Positions 9,001 through 36,000 are shown, counted from the first letter of the stretch. The stretch: DNA of 64,000 nucleotides from an uncultured bacterium (GCA_905215805.1 CAJMRL010000003.1:124066-188065), one strand, 5' to 3'. Numbers: made by a program.

Positions 9001-12000
9001 GCTGTCTTAAGATTGCTCAGAAGGCGGACAACTCATATGGAAGATATATATGTGTTGGAGTGGCGGCAATGTTTTTATTCCATGTATTCGAGAATGTGGG
9101 AATGTGTATAGGACTTATGCCGGTAACGGGTATCCCGCTTCCGCTGATAAGTTACGGAGGTACTTCTGTAGTAACAAACATGATTGCAATAGGCTTGGTA
9201 TTAAGCGTTAATTATCATAACAAGCCGCGAACTATTGTAGATGTATATTGATGGATTATATCAAGAGTTAAAAATAGGCTGCGGAAAAGCTTGTTCCGCA
9301 GCCTTGTCGTTTATAAATTTTAATTAACCAAAATATCTGACCATATGTTTACTCCTTTTAGATTATCATTTTCGTATTTGCATATTCATCATATTTCCGG
9401 CGCCTGCAGCGAACAGGTCCATAGAAATCTCATCTCTCCGCCTTCTCTGTGGCCGAGCCGCGTTTTACGGAAGTATCATTATACCCTGCCTTGTCATCGC
9501 GTTATATGGGAGCTGCCCATATATAAGTGCTCCTGATTCTATTGGCTAAGCAGACGGATAGCCGCTAACCGGCAGGGAACGTACCGGTTAGATACGCTAT
9601 TCAGTTTTCAAAGAGCGCGGGAATGTCTTTATCTATAAACACGAATAGTATTGAGTAAATCTAATTACATATAAACAAATGGCCCCAGAATTTTTTCTGA
9701 GGCCATTCAGCTTATTCTATGGTGAATTTTGAGATGTTTAATGCAATGTGCATCATTATGTATTGTCTCAAATCCTCATCCAGTACATTATCAATATAGC
9801 TATATTTATTGATAAGTGGCATATACAGCTCTAATAAGAGCTCCAAGTGCAGATGACTGCCTGCAACTGCACCTTGCAGCAGATGATAAAAATCCTGTTC
9901 AGCCAAACAGATCACCGCCTTTACATAGTAAGTCGCGCAATTTCTTTATTGCCAGTGATCGCTGATTATAAACATGCTGAACAGAGCAATGCAGCTGCTT
10001 CGCAATCTCATGGGGCTTTTTTTCCTCAACAAACAACAACGTCAATATTTTCTGGCGCATAAGCGGCAGCTTGGAAAAAGCCGTCGCCAATCGCTCTTCC
10101 TCAAAATCAAAACCTTCGTGTTCATTGGAGTTTAATTCCAAAGCACTATATTTGCCTTGATCCAATAATAAATGTTCTGGAATATCTTCGAGCGCAATTG
10201 TGGGAACACGTCTGTTCACCTTACGGATATAATCCGTTCTTGCATTGCGTATCAGGACTTCAAGCCAAACTGTGAATTCCCCACGCAATCTATCATTGTG
10301 TTCTTGCTGGTGGTTCACCTTCATACCTCCTTTAGGCATGCCACCAAAGCAAGAACACAACATGCTATGATAGCATGCTGTGATAAAATTCTAATTACCT
10401 GATATAACCAAAGCAAAGCAATCAGAACATTGGACTCACCCCCTTTGAAAAATTGTATAAAAAAACGGCCGCACCATACTATTGCATGGTGTAGCCGCAA
10501 TGCGCAACACAACTCGGTTAAGACAAAAATCTTAACCGATGTATATCCGGTTGTTTGACTTATTCGTTGAAATAGTTCCTGGTTAGCAGTATCTCCTTAT
10601 CATTGGTAAACACTCCTACTTTAGTTTCTCAAATTTCTCAAGAGAATCAAGATAACTCGATAGGGACTCGCATATTGTAATCTTTTTCGCAGTTGAATAT
10701 TTTTCAATACGTTCAGCAATCTCTTTTAAATAAATCTGTTCAGGATGGGTATAACTTTCCGCAGCCAATTGATCTATTGTAACAGATAGGGCATTCGCAA
10801 TACGCATTGTCATATCTAAACTTGGAACCGTTCTTGCATGTTCAATCTGACCGATATGACTGGTACTGCAATCACATAATTCTGCGAGATCTTCTTGTCT
10901 CAATCCTGCAATGTGCCGATATTTCTTGATATTTTTTCCCAAAGCTATGTAGTTCACGGTACATCTTCTCCTCTTAATTAATTTTACAATGTATCCTATT
11001 AAATTTGAAGAATGCAGCTATCCGATACACGCACCATAAGTGTGATTTGAGAAAATAATACCAAAAAAATAAAACAACGAATAAAATTAGTCTGCTCATA
11101 AGTGCGGGCAGACTAATTAGTAGTTTATAGGAACATATCAAGATTGTTCAGCATCTTTGCGATGTCCTCTTCTAAAGCTTCTTGTTGGTCGTTTTTGCTA
11201 TTATCCTGGATACCGGATATCTGCATGCCGGCCAGTCTTTGCTCTACAACATTCTGTATCATCTGCTCAATTTTAGCTTGATCATAGGCAGATGTAAGTT
11301 TAATTTCTACTTTACAGTTTTGGTTTTTCAATTCGGGATGGGATTCTATATATTCATTTAACGCTGCAATAACAAGATGACTTTTCTTGTTTCCCATCCT
11401 CTCCAGCAGTTCACCTGCCTGTAGTTGTTCTTCCGTGTCCGAGTTAAATTGCAGTGAAAAACGATACTTCCCGTCTTTTTTCATAAAACCACCGCCTGTC
11501 ACTTCACACTATGAAGCGTAAGCTGCTTTCTTGCAAGCATCTCATAGCCAATTGCATTCGCATTAGGGGACTCAACAAAACTTGCTTTTGCAACTTGCGG
11601 AGACTGCTCTAAAAATGTATGTAAGAGTATACTTCCACCACCGATAAACACAGCCGGATTAGAACGCAAATCGACTTGCAACTCTCGTAACTGATCCAAA
11701 ATATTCTTTGCGTGCAGTTTTGTTGCATTTGTAATCGTCTCTTTTACATCTCCTGGTAAAATCGTTTCTTGTCCGCTAAGAACAGCACTGATATGCTCAT
11801 CCTCGATACGCATATCATGGAGTGTCCCGACCTTTCTGACAATCTCATTATTCATCGTGATAATTCCGGTTTCCAGACTGCGGCAAAATTGTAAATCAGG
11901 CTTGCCGTTCCTAAGAAGCAGTACGTCTGTCGTATATCCTCCGATATCTATTATAAATATTCTCAGCGTATTTACGACCAGGCTACTTTGAGGCACAACT

Positions 12001-33000: not shown

Positions 33001-36000
33001 AACCGATGTTTCTGCCGTTTCATATTCAGCCAAACCCATTTCAGTCAACTCCTGAAGAGCTTGTTCTTCGTCAGCCGTTTTTGTATGCCCAAAAGAAAAC
33101 CGTCCGTTATTCCAGACCTCCGCCTGTATACCTGTCAGACAAAATTTCTGTTTGCCTCGGGATATGTGTAATTCCCATTCCGAAGTGTTTTTATATATCA
33201 TTCCTTTTGATAAATAAACCATCGTAAAAACTCCTTTCACTTAAATTACACGGTAAAAGTCGGTGTTTTACAACTCGCCTTATAAGAAATACATTAGAAC
33301 AACACACAACCCGATTACCACAACTACACCCGCAATGAGCAATACGATTTTCTTAATGACTGCTTTATCAAGGCCCTGTTTGACCGCGCTCGATGTGTCT
33401 GCGGGAATAATATCGTCATAATATCCATCGTAATCACTATCGTCAACTTCCGGCTGTGTTTCTTTCACCGGCGTATGTTTTGCCTTGCTTTTTTTCACTT
33501 TCTTTCGTTTTTCGCGGTGTACAGGCTTTATTTTCGTCTGCTTCTTCGATAAATCGGAAAGATTACCGCCGCACTCTGAACAAAAAGAAACGGCACCGTT
33601 TGTTATTTCGGCGCCGCAGTAGGGACAATATTTCATTTTATATTCACCTTCCTTAAGATTTGCCAAACAGGCTTCATTTCAGGCCTATTTTCAGATGTTA
33701 TTATTATATCAGACTTTTATTTCTTTGTCATCGGCATTTCCCTGCCTTTTTTGCGCCATTTTATTGCCGCGTAATATACGATTTTGAGTTGTTATGTTGA
33801 CTTTATACTTCTATGGTAGTATAATAATTATAGAATGCTTTTGTGATTGTATGGAAGGGGTAAAGTCATGGGTAAGAAAGCTCTTTATCATGGTTCCTCT
33901 AAGATTATAAGAACACCATTTTACGGGAAGGGCAAAAGATATAATGATTACGGACGCGGCTTTTATTGCACCGAGCATGTGGAACTTGCCAAAGAGTGGG
34001 CGTGTACAGGAAATACAATTGGTTATGTAAATCAATATGAGATAGAGACTGACGGGCTGAACGTATTGAATCTGTTTTCAGCTGAATATACAATTCTGCA
34101 CTGGCTTGCGCTTTTAAGCGAACATCGAAGGATGCGTATATCTACATCGGTCATGCAGCGCGGTATCGCGTGGCTGCATGATAATTTTAAGATTGATGTA
34201 AACGGATATGACGCAATCATCGGCTATTGTGCCGACGATTCCTACTTTTCCTTCGCAAGAGCTTTTTTGCGTAATGATATCTCATTACCACAGCTGACAT
34301 ATGCCATGGGACTGGGAAAGCTTAGAGAACAGTTTGTTTTAAAGAGCGAAAAAGCATTCGGTTCGATCTATTTTGTTTCTTATGAGGCTGTGGATCACGC
34401 CGAATACTACGCAAGAAGGAAAGCCCGTGACGATCAGGTAAGAACCGCTTTTCAAGAAAAATTGGACAGTGATAAGTTAGAGGGGCTATACATACAGGAC
34501 ATCATTCGTGAGGAGGTGCGCCCCAATGATCCACGCTTACAATAAAATATATTTAGACGATGCCATGCATAATCTCGGTGAAATGTTTGACTATGCGCAA
34601 AATGCCTGCCATATTGAGCCGGAGATATTTTGGGATATGTTTATTGCAAGTGGATATGCCGATCGTTTTGCAATCGGTATGCCGGCTGTCGTTTCGGGCA
34701 GATCCGGTACCGAGATCGCCATGGAGATATTCAGCAAACAGGATGCAAGCGAAGCTTTCCCGGAGTCGTATAACGGTGTCAGAAAGTCCAAAGCCTATTG
34801 GTGTGGCAGTATGCTTGCATATTATCAACGACGCACAGGACGCAGTTTTCAGGATATACACAAGCGAATTGCATACAGTGACATAGAGAAACTTTATCCA
34901 ACATTGCATGATGCGTCGAAAGAGCAGGTTGCAGATTTAATGGATCAGCAGATTCATAATAAAAAAGAGCCTACACGACTCCATACTCTGCGTCTGGCAG
35001 GTGGATATACGCAGAAAGAGCTGGCTGAAAAATCCGGCGTAAACCTGAGGACTCTGCAACAGTATGAGATCCGTGGAAAGGATATCAACAAAGCGGCTTC
35101 CGCAAATCTAATGGCGCTTGCAAAGGTGCTTGGCTGCCACATGGAGGATCTTATGGAATATGATACGGAAGATGTTGAAGAATGATTGATTATGTGTCTA
35201 CAAAAAGCATTTATCAGGACATCTGAAGATGTTCATAAACACATCATAGAGATGATATAAAATGGAAGGAGAATCAAAATTGATAAATAAGTTTTATCCA
35301 TGGACGATTGACATAGATGCAAATGCGACAAAAAAGCTTTATCAGAAAAGAAATTTCGCAACAGATCAAACGGCCAATCAACATTTTTTAGAGTCTATTA
35401 CAGAAAAACAAAAAGCCTTTTTTGATATGCTTGGCGTAGACATCATGAGAGTTAAGGCAGATGAAAAGCAATGGGATTTGTCCGCCGATGAGGAATCGGA
35501 ATATAACGGCGAGCTTTACCGGTTGGCAGTTGATTTTTTGATGGTTGGTAGTTTTGTTGCAATTCCGGATTATCAAAAAGATTTATACGGCGATGATGAA
35601 ATGTTTGGGAAATCCCTTCCTGAGGCATTAGAGATTGTGCAGATGGAAGATGACAATCTTCCGACATACGAATTGGACAATATGAACATTGTATTTAAAC
35701 ATCCTTGTTTTCACTTTGAGGAGCCGGAATTTCAAGAGTGGGACTGCGGATATGTCCTCGGTACTATACTTATTTTTAAGGATTGCTGAATTTTTCGTTT
35801 TAAGCAGAAAGGTTTTGGAAAGATGAGCAATTGGTTTACTATAGATAAAATAGACGCTGATACCTATTGTATCAGTGAATACCGGCACTGGGAGGAGACG
35901 CATTGCTATTTGTTGAACGGGTCGGAGCGGAGTCTGCTGATCGATACGGGTCTGGGGATCTGCAATATATATAACGAAGTTGTTAAACTGACCGATAAGC

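What the first reader, a model, noticed from the sequence alone, without database searches (positions are those of the whole stretch)
9700..33700. About 24-kb unidirectional phage/plasmid-like replication-segregation block without integrase or virion genes
All genes from about 9712 to 33636 are on the minus strand, in three or four terminator-delimited operons. They comprise an XRE repressor, a split sigma factor, ParM/ParR actin-like segregation genes with an upstream repeat region, a CHC2-TOPRIM primase, a RecD-like helicase, a YqaJ exonuclease, SSB, an orphan methyltransferase and AAA ATPases. No integrase or recombinase, terminase, capsid, tail or conjugation genes are present in the window. 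This combination suggests a phage-plasmid, a satellite, or a decayed element within a larger accessory island that continues to about 60 kb. It is flanked by core genes (pan, hydF, rodA) on the left.
Basis: partly seen in the sequence, partly recalled or inferred. Interest (0 to 1): 0.6.

Follow-up and report, generated by a model that had tools for sequence, protein, structure and literature searches.

The report
Locked-in plasmid-like integrative element backbone
The flagged 24 kb is the conserved replication, partition and regulation half of a large mobile element that inserts into the tail of the rubrerythrin gene of gut Monoglobales bacteria. This copy has lost its excision end, so it is a stranded member of an apparently undescribed family of a familiar kind of element, not a phage-plasmid.

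Summary
Window 9.7-33.7 kb is a unidirectional block encoding XRE, sigma-region-4, HTH_16, ParM/ParR, primase, RecD2, YqaJ, an SSB-like protein, a methylase and AAA+/VWA proteins. The window has no integrase, virion or conjugation genes.

The block is not a self-contained 24-kb unit. It is the right-hand backbone of an island of at least 75 kb that runs past the window edge. The same DNA (99.2-100% identical) lies next to about ten different chromosomal flanks. Conspecific Monoglobales strains show the empty site: rodA, then an intact reverse rubrerythrin gene, then fur.

Intact copies end with a pemK RNA leader, a second sigma-r4 gene, an HTH_17 excisionase-like gene, three GTGGGCAA arm-type repeats and an attR made of the duplicated last 20 rubrerythrin codons. 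The window copy has lost exactly 785 bp between two 10-bp repeats, removing all of these except the pemK leader. It is immobilised, and sister strains with the same joint are decaying further.

Diverged relatives end instead with three large serine recombinases; IMG/VR lists them as viral, but I found no virion genes in them. The closest real replicons are Oscillospiraceae plasmids that carry a T4SS. The element's far end, integrase and transfer genes were not found.

The parts
9276..9304 (.). Host bidirectional terminator between rodA and the rubrerythrin gene. It is chromosome, not element.
   Evidence: Hairpin found. The same sequence sits between rodA and intact rbr in the empty-site strains L172 and L179.
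9324..9338 (-). Remnant of the host rubrerythrin tail (last codons ..RYFG plus stop). It includes the deletion joint, the 10-bp repeat CAAAATATCT at 9329-9338.
   Evidence: The intact conspecific copy L177 has the two repeats 785 bp apart. The window, L178, L174 and L175 share one identical joint.
9419..9482 (-). pemK RNA motif. In intact copies it is the leader of the sigma2/HTH_17 genes. Here it is orphaned, because the genes behind it are deleted.
   Evidence: Rfam RF02913, 70 bits against a gathering score of 34.8. The motif is at the same position in L004, L005 and four serine-recombinase relatives.
9712..10957 (-). Terminal regulatory module: XRE repressor-like (10616-10957), region-4-only sigma-like protein (9899-10363) and HTH_16 protein (9712-9915).
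   Evidence: Pfam. Conserved in all relatives. Same gene types as Tn916 orf9/orf7/orf8 (review PMC5812530).
11125..12604 (-). Type II partition locus: ParM (11499-12419), a ParR candidate (11125-11502) and a candidate parC region (12420-12604).
   Evidence: ALP_N and MreB-like_C. 43% identical to the ParM/StbA of plasmid pMM35_02, which is also followed by a small ORF. The repeats are weak.
12605..20674 (-). DNA replication and recombination module: Toprim/DnaG-like primase, 252-aa and 149-aa unknowns, RecD2 helicase, a SprT-Zn-ribbon-like protein, DUF7768, YqaJ exonuclease and a 403-aa unknown.
   Evidence: The syntenic YqaJ-RecD-hyp-primase module is in pMM35_02 at 28-40% identity. Serine-recombinase relatives share it at 45-76%.
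20874..22277 (-). ATPase_2/DUF234 ATPase in its own promoter-terminator cassette. It is a candidate defence gene.
   Evidence: PADLOC PDC-S27, E 7e-51. Promoter and terminator. 72% identical to the gene just upstream of parM in pMM35_02.
22396..33666 (-). Establishment/accessory part of the backbone: orphan N6/N4 methylase, small ORFs, a DUF1281_C (Api92-like) protein, VWA (747 aa) plus AAA_5 (624 aa) pair, an SSB-like protein, unknowns, and a Zn-ribbon protein at the operon start.
   Evidence: Conserved at 36-78% in serine-recombinase relatives.
33847..64000 (.). Cargo half of the same island; it continues beyond the window. Contents: DUF3990/HTH, MBL, hydrolases, a CatA-like gene, GNATs, a glyoxalase, a Y-family polymerase with YolD-like protein and 3-methyladenine glycosylase, a DUF3990/DUF3791 triad, TCS plus ABC transporters, MFS/MarR, HTH genes, and an SLH-M13 peptidase.
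   Evidence: Pfam. The segment is syntenic with the block in contigs that have other chromosomal flanks. No rubrerythrin-tail remnant lies inside it. The DUF3990 triad and the outer XerC/D-like gene are shared with a serine-recombinase relative.

Best explanation
What it is. The block is the conserved backbone (right-hand half) of a large, horizontally spreading, site-specific integrative element of plasmid ancestry. The element lives in gut Monoglobales and other Clostridia.

Shown:
- The element inserts into the last 20 codons of the reverse rubrerythrin gene next to fur. This leaves the host tail as an orphan attR.
- Its intact right end reads ParM-ParR, XRE, sigma-r4, HTH_16, terminator, pemK RNA leader, second sigma-r4, HTH_17 (excisionase-type), three GTGGGCAA repeats, then the crossover.
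- It is present in some strains of the species and absent from others.
- The window copy lost 785 bp by recombination between two 10-bp repeats. The loss removes the second sigma gene, the HTH_17 gene, the arm repeats and attR.

Inferred:
- A tyrosine integrase of the rubrerythrin-tail family, helped by the HTH_17 protein, excises the element.
- The terminal regulators and the pemK leader gate that step, as Orf9/Orf7/Orf8 do in Tn916.
- The circle is then copied with the primase and RecD2 helicase, and ParMR partitions it as a low-copy plasmid.
- SSB, YqaJ, the methylase and the AAA+/VWA proteins serve establishment in a new host.
- Transfer is by conjugation. It more likely uses a co-resident T4SS than one of its own, because none was found in about 75 kb.
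- The window copy can no longer excise and behaves as a fixed genomic island.
For: Spread and flanks:
- An identical ParM is indexed in 278 blocks of the collection. The block is 99.2-100% identical next to different flanks: Cas9, Cys/Met enzyme, LytB-S1, OKR_DC, DUF1848, rpsI and others.
- Empty sites occur in conspecific strains, with rodA followed by intact rbr and fur.

The att site:
- All copies end at one point. They are followed by a synonymously varying ..FRDEARHGKGFEGMLKRYFG* tail.
- Full-length rubrerythrins end in this motif.
- 15 genomes carry orphan tails from diverse inserts, some with tyrosine integrases.
- Arm-type repeats are present, and 20 of 21 bases match those upstream of a neighbouring rbr-type integrase gene.

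The window copy:
- The deletion joint is precisely defined.
- The copy is otherwise collinear and 99.0-99.6% identical to intact copies, while sister strains sharing the joint carry further deletions.

Plasmid ancestry:
- ParM (43%), primase (35%), RecD2 (40%), YqaJ (28%), the 252-aa protein (30%) and the ATPase (72%) match Vescimonas fastidiosa plasmid pMM35_02. That plasmid also carries a T4SS, an XRE/sigma/HTH trio and a xis/int pair.

Precedents:
- SXT/R391 ICEs replicate and use a ParM-type srpMRC locus in the int operon (PMC4489591).
- Tn916 regulatory logic (PMC5812530).
Against: - The far (left) end was never reached.
- No integrase, relaxase, oriT or T4SS was identified in the window or in roughly 20 kb of homologous contigs beyond it.
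- No replication initiator was recognised.
- ParR and parC are weakly supported.
- I have no read-level evidence of an excised circle.
- Identity falls from over 99% in the block to about 95% beyond 59 kb. The outer island could therefore have a partly separate history.
- Extrachromosomal maintenance and the role of the pemK leader are inferences.
Confidence: 0.72

Rival explanations
1. It is a self-transmissible ICE. Its own integrase and type IV secretion module lie in the distal part that I could not reach, and the block is simply the ICE's maintenance and regulation half.
For: The related plasmid pMM35_02 has a Gram-positive T4SS directly upstream of its SSB...ParM segment, plus a xis/int pair. 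Serine-recombinase relatives encode their own recombinases next to the block. A Tn916-like terminal module would read across the joint into genes at the other end.
Against: About 50 kb walked outward from the block shows only cargo and a small XerC/D-like recombinase without an arm-binding domain. A 43.7-kb serine-recombinase relative read end to end has nothing resembling the pMM35_02 T4SS. This lineage carries xis but no adjacent int.
Confidence: 0.3
2. It is a prophage remnant or phage-plasmid, as the IMG/VR classification of relatives suggests.
For: Relatives with 68-83% ParM identity are listed as viral genomes in IMG/VR. PHROG families match the primase, VWA, AAA and SSB-like proteins. 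Unverified 'Bacteriophage sp.' metagenome scaffolds carry AAA_5 homologues.
Against: No terminase, portal, capsid, tail or lysis family was found in any window ORF. None was evident in the 43.7-kb IMG/VR region, which I checked only by comparison with window genes and pMM35_02 plus two PDB searches. None was evident in MT835792. There is no DNA match to 50,697 phage records. The att core is absent from IMG/VR. The best real replicon matches are plasmids.
Confidence: 0.04
3. It is an ancestral, non-mobile chromosomal island, or a defence island, of this species.
For: The window copy is fixed by loss of attR. The block contains a PDC-S27-like ATPase and an orphan methylase.
Against: Conspecific strains have empty sites. 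Near-identical copies lie next to many unrelated flanks. The att duplication and arm repeats are present. Only one gene matches a candidate defence family.
Confidence: 0.02

Closest known systems
Plasmid pMM35_02 of Vescimonas fastidiosa MM35 (NZ_AP023417.1, 142 kb). More distantly, Subdoligranulum variabile and Butyrivibrio proteoclasticus plasmids.
   Same: It has a syntenic YqaJ-type exonuclease, RecD-like helicase, hypothetical protein and primase module. It also has ATPase-ParM-ParR, an XRE/sigma-70/HTH trio, SSB, a methylase, and PcfJ and LigA as in the serine-recombinase relatives.
   Different: It is an extrachromosomal replicon with a T4SS and sortase pili. Identity is only 28-43%, apart from the ATPase at 72%. 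The modules are dispersed over the plasmid. It has no AAA_5/VWA pair. There is no known link to the rubrerythrin site.
SXT/R391 integrative conjugative elements
   Same: They are chromosomally integrated at the 3' or 5' end of a housekeeping gene. They replicate when excised. They are stabilised by a ParM-type srpMRC locus that sits in the int operon at the element end (PMC4489591). From my own knowledge, they also carry ssb-bet-exo recombination genes and a Y-family polymerase.
   Different: They are Gammaproteobacterial. I tested no sequence relationship. They encode their own integrase, relaxase and T4SS, none of which was found here.
Tn916 regulatory and recombination end (orf9, orf7, orf8, xis, int)
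   Same: It has an XRE-type repressor, a sigma-region-4-like protein and a small HTH_16-type protein upstream of an HTH_17-type excisionase at the element terminus. Read-through transcription gates excision (PMC5812530; Pfam).
   Different: Here XRE is co-directional, and a pemK RNA leader and a second sigma-like gene are interposed. No int follows xis. Integration is site-specific into a gene tail rather than into AT-rich sites.
Unnamed IMG/VR 'UViG' regions (for example 2889787374_000005 and 2563367179_000007)
   Same: They share almost the whole block at 36-78% protein identity in the same order. This includes the pemK RNA after the HTH_16 gene, a XerC/D-like gene at the opposite end, and a DUF3990/DUF3791 triad.
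   Different: They end with DUF6870 plus three tandem large serine recombinases, instead of sigma2 plus HTH_17 plus a tyrosine-type att.
Integrative mobilisable elements and cis-mobilisable elements that rely on a helper ICE (accretion-mobilisation; from my own knowledge of the ICESt3/CIME literature)
   Same: No integrase or transfer genes were found. The att site and arm repeats are shared with integrase-bearing neighbours. Integrase-bearing or remnant elements lie directly next to it in 2 of 7 sampled contexts.
   Different: It is much larger, and it has its own excisionase-like gene, replication genes and partition genes. Dependence on a helper is not shown.

Membership tests
Integrative and conjugative element (ICE) | Site-specific insertion flanked by att repeats, with empty sites in related strains | tested here: met
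   Duplicated 20-codon rubrerythrin tail at the right end. Empty sites L172 and L179. attL itself was not seen.
Integrative and conjugative element (ICE) | Element-encoded integrase | tested here: inconclusive
   None in the window. None in about 20 kb beyond it except a 276-322-aa XerC/D-like protein without an arm-binding domain. The far end was not reached.
Integrative and conjugative element (ICE) | [quoted passage not shown] | tested here: not met
   No such Pfam family in any window ORF or in the precomputed calls of the flanking loci. This applies to the about 75 kb seen, not to the unseen distal end.
Prophage / phage-plasmid | Terminase, portal, capsid, tail and lysis genes | tested here: not met
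   Pfam; PHROGs: only DNA-metabolism and accessory families; relatives.
Type II (ParMRC) partition system | Actin-like ParM ATPase | tested here: met
   ALP_N 2.6e-9 and MreB-like_C 1.7e-11, both above their cut-offs. 43% identical to an annotated ParM/StbA.
Type II (ParMRC) partition system | Small DNA-binding ParR encoded downstream, and iterated parC repeats upstream of parM | tested here: inconclusive
   A conserved 125-aa ORF overlaps the parM stop, but it has no family. The upstream region holds only two 8-mers and a palindrome.
Tyrosine-recombinase att site in a gene 3' tail | Crossover inside the target gene, duplication of its tail, and arm-type repeats near the core | tested here: met
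   in intact copies. All of these features are deleted from the window copy.
Tn916-type regulatory module | XRE repressor, sigma-region-4 protein and HTH_16 protein preceding xis-int | tested here: inconclusive
   The three regulators are met. The HTH_17 xis-type gene is met in intact copies. The int gene is not present after it.
pemK RNA motif (Rfam RF02913) | Covariance-model score above the curated gathering threshold | tested here: met
   70 bits against 34.8 in the window. 54-73 bits in six further copies and relatives.
SXT/R391 ICE family | Sequence homology of core genes (int, tra, setCD) and insertion in prfC | not tested
   Used only as a functional analogue. The insertion site is clearly different.

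The most novel reading that the evidence does not exclude
This lineage may be a large plasmid-like hitchhiker that encodes no integrase and no transfer apparatus. On this reading it carries only an excisionase-like gene, arm sites, and replication and ParMR partition genes. It would be integrated, excised and transferred by the tyrosine integrase and T4SS of co-resident ICEs that use the same rubrerythrin-tail site.

Evidence in favour:
- Its arm repeats match 20 of 21 bases with those next to such an integrase gene.
- Such elements lie directly beside it in some genomes.
- One contig (L145) joins the right end, via the att, to a uvrA-like gene. That gene otherwise lies at the island's outer edge, in the orientation of a circular permutation.
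Probability: 0.3. Interest if true: 0.65.

Novelty: new member of a known kind. Interest (0 to 1): 0.42.

Why it matters
- It identifies a widespread, recently spreading element family in poorly studied gut Clostridia (Monoglobales, with relatives in Oscillospirales).
- It identifies an integration hot spot, the rubrerythrin gene tail. I found no description of this site in the searchable literature.
- Virus catalogues list its relatives as proviruses, although I saw no virion genes in them.
- The pemK RNA motif, whose function is unknown as far as I recall, sits consistently in front of the recombination module, whichever recombinase type is used.
- The strain series is a clean natural example of an element being locked in by a microhomology deletion and then eroding.
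- The island carries many drug-modifying and efflux-type genes, so its mobility is relevant to resistance-gene flow. None of them is a known resistance allele.

Tried and rejected
**Far end.** I walked outward with exact-protein look-ups and three homologue searches. This reached about 83 kb in window-equivalent coordinates without finding rbr, an integrase or a T4SS.
The source contig was not in that collection.
- No window protein further out than the HTH-Zn-ribbon gene is exactly conserved in the contigs that would show the uvrA-like end.

**Is the integrase after the att in L005 the element's own left end?** Rejected. That DNA is only 80% identical between L005 and L006, whereas the element is at least 98.6% identical between the same contigs.

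**Is the XerC/D-like gene a host housekeeping gene?** Rejected. It recurs beside other ParM-XRE-sigma sets and at the far end of a serine-recombinase relative.

**Searches that found nothing or little.**
- PDB search with the tail peptide: nothing.
- DNA searches against plasmid and phage collections: no match.
- The AAA_5 protein gave only weak or unverified hits.
- Literature on rubrerythrin att sites and on pemK context: nothing usable.
- The 'Hodor' megaplasmid paper is unrelated.

**Unknown proteins.**
- Single-sequence structure models of the 403-aa and 252-aa proteins were unusable (pLDDT 38 and 49). No fold search was run.
- Profile and NCBIfam searches gave nothing.
- Two large unknown proteins in a relative have no PDB relatives.

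
Full report
**1. Observation**

The ORF map and Pfam scans confirm an unbroken minus-strand gene array from 9712 to 33666. In order of transcription it encodes:
- a Zn-ribbon protein and unknowns;
- an SSB-like protein (sub-threshold);
- an AAA_5 ATPase (624 aa) and a VWA/CobT_C protein (747 aa);
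- a DUF1281_C protein;
- an N6/N4 methylase;
- an ATPase_2/DUF234 protein;
- a 403-aa unknown, YqaJ, DUF7768 and a SprT-Zn-like protein;
- RecD2, then 149-aa and 252-aa unknowns;
- a Toprim/DnaG-like primase;
- ParM and a 125-aa ParR candidate;
- XRE, a region-4-only sigma-like protein and an HTH_16 protein.

Terminator-like hairpins and two near-consensus promoters divide the array into several units. The ATPase_2 gene is a self-contained cassette and matches the PADLOC candidate defence family PDC-S27.

Every other ORF in the window was scanned or has precomputed families. None is an integrase, recombinase, virion, relaxase or T4SS gene. The left flank is core (pan genes, hydF, SLH protein, rodA).

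**2. The block is part of something larger and mobile**

The window comes from JGI contig Ga0252351_000091. The exact ParM protein is indexed in 278 blocks of the assembly collection. In long contigs the same block lies next to unrelated genes: a Cas9 locus, a Cys/Met enzyme, LytB-S1, an Orn/Lys decarboxylase and DUF1848/HSP90. Two species-representative genomes add rpsI/rplM and a uvrA-like gene as flanks.

The plus-strand 'cargo' to the right of the block travels with it in contigs that have other flanks. It continues past the window through an SLH-M13 peptidase, ABC/TCS modules, MacB, GPP34, ECF sigma, an SLH-M16 peptidase and a XerC/D-like recombinase, reaching about 83 kb in window-equivalent coordinates.

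Nucleotide identity to other contigs changes along the island:
- 99.2-100% over 9.3-24 kb;
- 97-99% to 35 kb;
- about 95% beyond 59 kb.

No rubrerythrin-tail remnant lies inside the window. The island therefore behaves as one insertion.

**3. Attachment site**

Seven independent copies end at the same base. Each continues with about 50 bp that differ at synonymous positions and encode ..FRDEARHGKGFEGMLKRYFG*.

A genome-collection scan with the core found 15 genuine sites in Oscillospirales and Clostridia MAGs. In every one the tail is an orphan of 20-38 codons behind some insert. Several of these loci show the intact gene nearby: a 180-208-aa reverse rubrerythrin (RUBY_RBDX plus Rubrerythrin) next to a Fur-family regulator. 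It ends in exactly this motif. Other inserts carry 435-471-aa tyrosine integrases next to the tail.

All right ends have two or three direct 7-8-nt repeats 40-110 nt from the crossover. Here the repeat is GTGGGCAA, three times, an 8-mer seen only once elsewhere in the 64 kb. The pair GTGGGCAAACGGTGGGCAAAT matches 20 of 21 bases with the pair upstream of a 392-aa Arm-DNA-bind_4 integrase gene that follows the att in L005.

The element's own last about 80 bp is a decayed rubrerythrin fragment. I found no paper describing this site.

**4. Host, empty site and the state of this copy**

RodA homologues identify the host as a Monoglobales bacterium. Conspecific contigs (RodA 99%) fall into these groups:
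- Empty sites (L172, L179): rodA, terminator, intact rbr, fur.
- Complete right ends (L173, L176, L177).
- A different element at the same site (L181).
- A group (window, L178, L174, L175) sharing one identical joint, TTAACCAAAATATCT|GACCATATG.

In the intact copy L177 the two CAAAATATCT repeats are 785 bp apart. The deletion removes the second sigma gene (all but five codons), the HTH_17 gene, the arm repeats, the crossover and most of the host tail.

Apart from this the window copy is collinear and 99.0-99.6% identical to intact copies. L174, L175, L178 and L180 carry additional internal deletions. This is a single lock-in event followed by erosion.

**5. Family**

IMG/VR holds diverged relatives (ParM 68-83%) with the same gene order. 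After the HTH_16 gene they end with DUF6870 plus three tandem large serine recombinases.

A pemK RNA motif (Rfam RF02913; 70 bits in the window at 9419-9482) sits in all of them, and in intact copies of this lineage. It always lies between the HTH_16 terminator and the recombination module, whichever recombinase type follows. In the window it is orphaned.

One 43.7-kb relative read end to end contains the following, in order:
- a XerC/D-like recombinase plus sortase;
- two large unknown proteins;
- a DUF3990/DUF3791 triad, also present in the window at 49.6-50.5 kb;
- PAPS-reductase-like, PcfJ-like, Fic, VapC, LigA and Api92-like genes;
- the block.

It has no recognisable T4SS or virion gene.

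The XerC/D-like gene also lies 8 kb from another ParM-ParR-XRE-sigma set in a 1.28-Mb MAG contig. It lacks an arm-binding domain. I read it as a plasmid-type multimer-resolution recombinase; this is an inference.

**6. Relation to real replicons**

There is no DNA-level match in 72,556 plasmids or 50,697 phages. At protein level the best matches of ParM and the primase are plasmids of gut Oscillospiraceae.

Vescimonas fastidiosa pMM35_02 has the following:
- the syntenic YqaJ-RecD-hyp-primase module;
- ATPase-ParM-ParR;
- an XRE/sigma/HTH trio;
- SSB and a methylase;
- AcrIIA9, PcfJ and LigA;
- a xis/int pair;
- a Gram-positive T4SS with sortase pili directly upstream of the SSB segment.

The backbone therefore belongs to a pool of plasmid genes found on a T4SS-bearing replicon, not to phages. 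The att core is absent from IMG/VR.

**7. What remains open**

I could not reach the left end. Two observations bear on it.
- In L145 the right end, itself carrying a 280-bp deletion, is followed by the tail, a terminator and a convergent uvrA-like gene with HxlR.
- That gene pair is 83% identical to the pair at the outer edge of the island in L027, L030 and L032. Its orientation is that of a circular permutation.

If this marks the left end, a composite map of the smallest variant (about 51 kb) has no integrase, relaxase or T4SS. The L145 flank has no arm repeats, so it may instead be host DNA or another island.

My estimates are roughly 0.3 for a self-transmissible ICE with distal int/T4SS and 0.3 for an integrase-less hitchhiker. 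The remainder goes to intermediate, mobilisable forms.

**8. Mechanism**

Shown: site-specific insertion in the rubrerythrin tail, strain variability, recent spread, the right-end anatomy, the 785-bp loss, and subsequent erosion.

Inferred:
- excision by a rubrerythrin-tail tyrosine integrase with the HTH_17 protein;
- control by XRE/sigma-r4/HTH_16 and the pemK leader, analogous to Tn916 (PMC5812530);
- replication with the primase and RecD2;
- ParMR partition of the circle, as shown experimentally for srpMRC of SXT/R391, whose ParM-like gene likewise heads the int operon (PMC4489591);
- establishment functions for SSB, YqaJ, the methylase and AAA+/VWA;
- conjugative transfer using a co-resident machinery.

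**9. Verdict**

It is not a phage-plasmid, and its true extent is at least 75 kb.

It is a new member of a known kind (an integrative, plasmid-like ICE or IME-type element). The features worth follow-up are the att hot spot, the pemK leader association, the swap of recombinase type within one backbone, and the provirus labelling of relatives in IMG/VR.

Attempts that failed are listed under Tried and rejected.

Noticed in passing
window 9419-9482 (-); L004 12939-13002; L035 13007-13070; L036 12997-13060; L039 12333-12412; L041 13766-13829: The pemK RNA motif (RF02913) is always placed between the HTH_16 gene's terminator and the recombination module. That module is sigma2 plus HTH_17 in this lineage and DUF6870 plus three serine recombinases in relatives. 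This suggests a leader that gates expression of the excision/integration genes.
   Followed up: partly
L130-L146 (genome collection); L141 has three orphan tails; L181 11132-11505: The 3' tail of the reverse rubrerythrin gene is an integration hot spot. Fifteen Clostridia/Oscillospirales genomes carry orphan tails behind diverse inserts, some only 0.7-2 kb long. One locus has tandem remnants. A second, different element occupies the same site in the window's own species.
   Followed up: partly
window 20874-22277 (-): The ATPase_2/DUF234 gene has its own strong promoter and terminator. It matches the PADLOC candidate defence family PDC-S27 (E 7e-51). It is 72% identical to the gene just upstream of parM on plasmid pMM35_02, far more than any other shared gene.
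   Followed up: partly
window 46002-48529 (+): A Y-family polymerase (IMS, 507 aa), a 3-methyladenine glycosylase and a YolD-like protein form a cluster in the cargo. I recall the rumAB-type mutagenic repair genes of SXT/R391 ICEs as a possible analogue.
   Followed up: no
window 38336-38971 (+): The CAT-family gene is only 38% identical to CatA3. It is 73% identical to a 'CatA-like' gene on a Pusillibacter faecalis 504-kb replicon. It is surrounded by many GNAT/hexapeptide acetyltransferases, a glyoxalase/bleomycin-type protein, an MBL and efflux genes. None is a known resistance allele.
   Followed up: partly
window 49577-50516 (+) and 33868-35185 (+); L184 7262-8209: A DUF3990 / about 80-aa / DUF3791 gene triad is conserved (42-59%) between this island and a serine-recombinase relative. 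A second DUF3990 gene is paired with an HTH_3 protein right next to the block. The function is unknown; it could be an addiction or defence module.
   Followed up: no
L147 311-1279; L171 10001-11624; L182/L183; L184 1-1645: A 276-aa XerC/D-like tyrosine recombinase has about 890 homologues at 73-81% identity. It is usually followed by a sortase, recurs at the far end of elements of this family, and often lies at contig ends.
   Followed up: partly
IMG/VR contigs L035-L049, L157-L164, L184: IMG/VR lists relatives of this block as viral genomes. Their predicted boundaries often coincide with just the block plus the serine recombinases. I found no virion gene in them, which suggests misclassified integrative plasmid-like elements.
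   Followed up: partly
L005 14219-20921; L006 14228-16335: Directly downstream of the rubrerythrin tail and terminator, some hosts carry another element (Int 392 aa, RepA_N, ParA, ParB, DUF3789) or its remnants (an Int fragment, a TraG fragment, NlpC/P60). It has the same GTGGGCAA arm motif.
   Followed up: partly
window 60502-62850 (-); L147 1365-4790: The island encodes two large secreted peptidases (M13 and M16) with SLH cell-wall-anchoring domains, like the host's own 1043-aa SLH protein at 4858-7989. This is cargo adapted to an S-layer-bearing host.
   Followed up: no
window 25-40 kb versus 9-24 kb; table: There are step changes in identity between contigs. For example L012 and L014 drop from 99% to 93% at about 35-36 kb. 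This indicates recombination mosaicism between lineages of the element.
   Followed up: no
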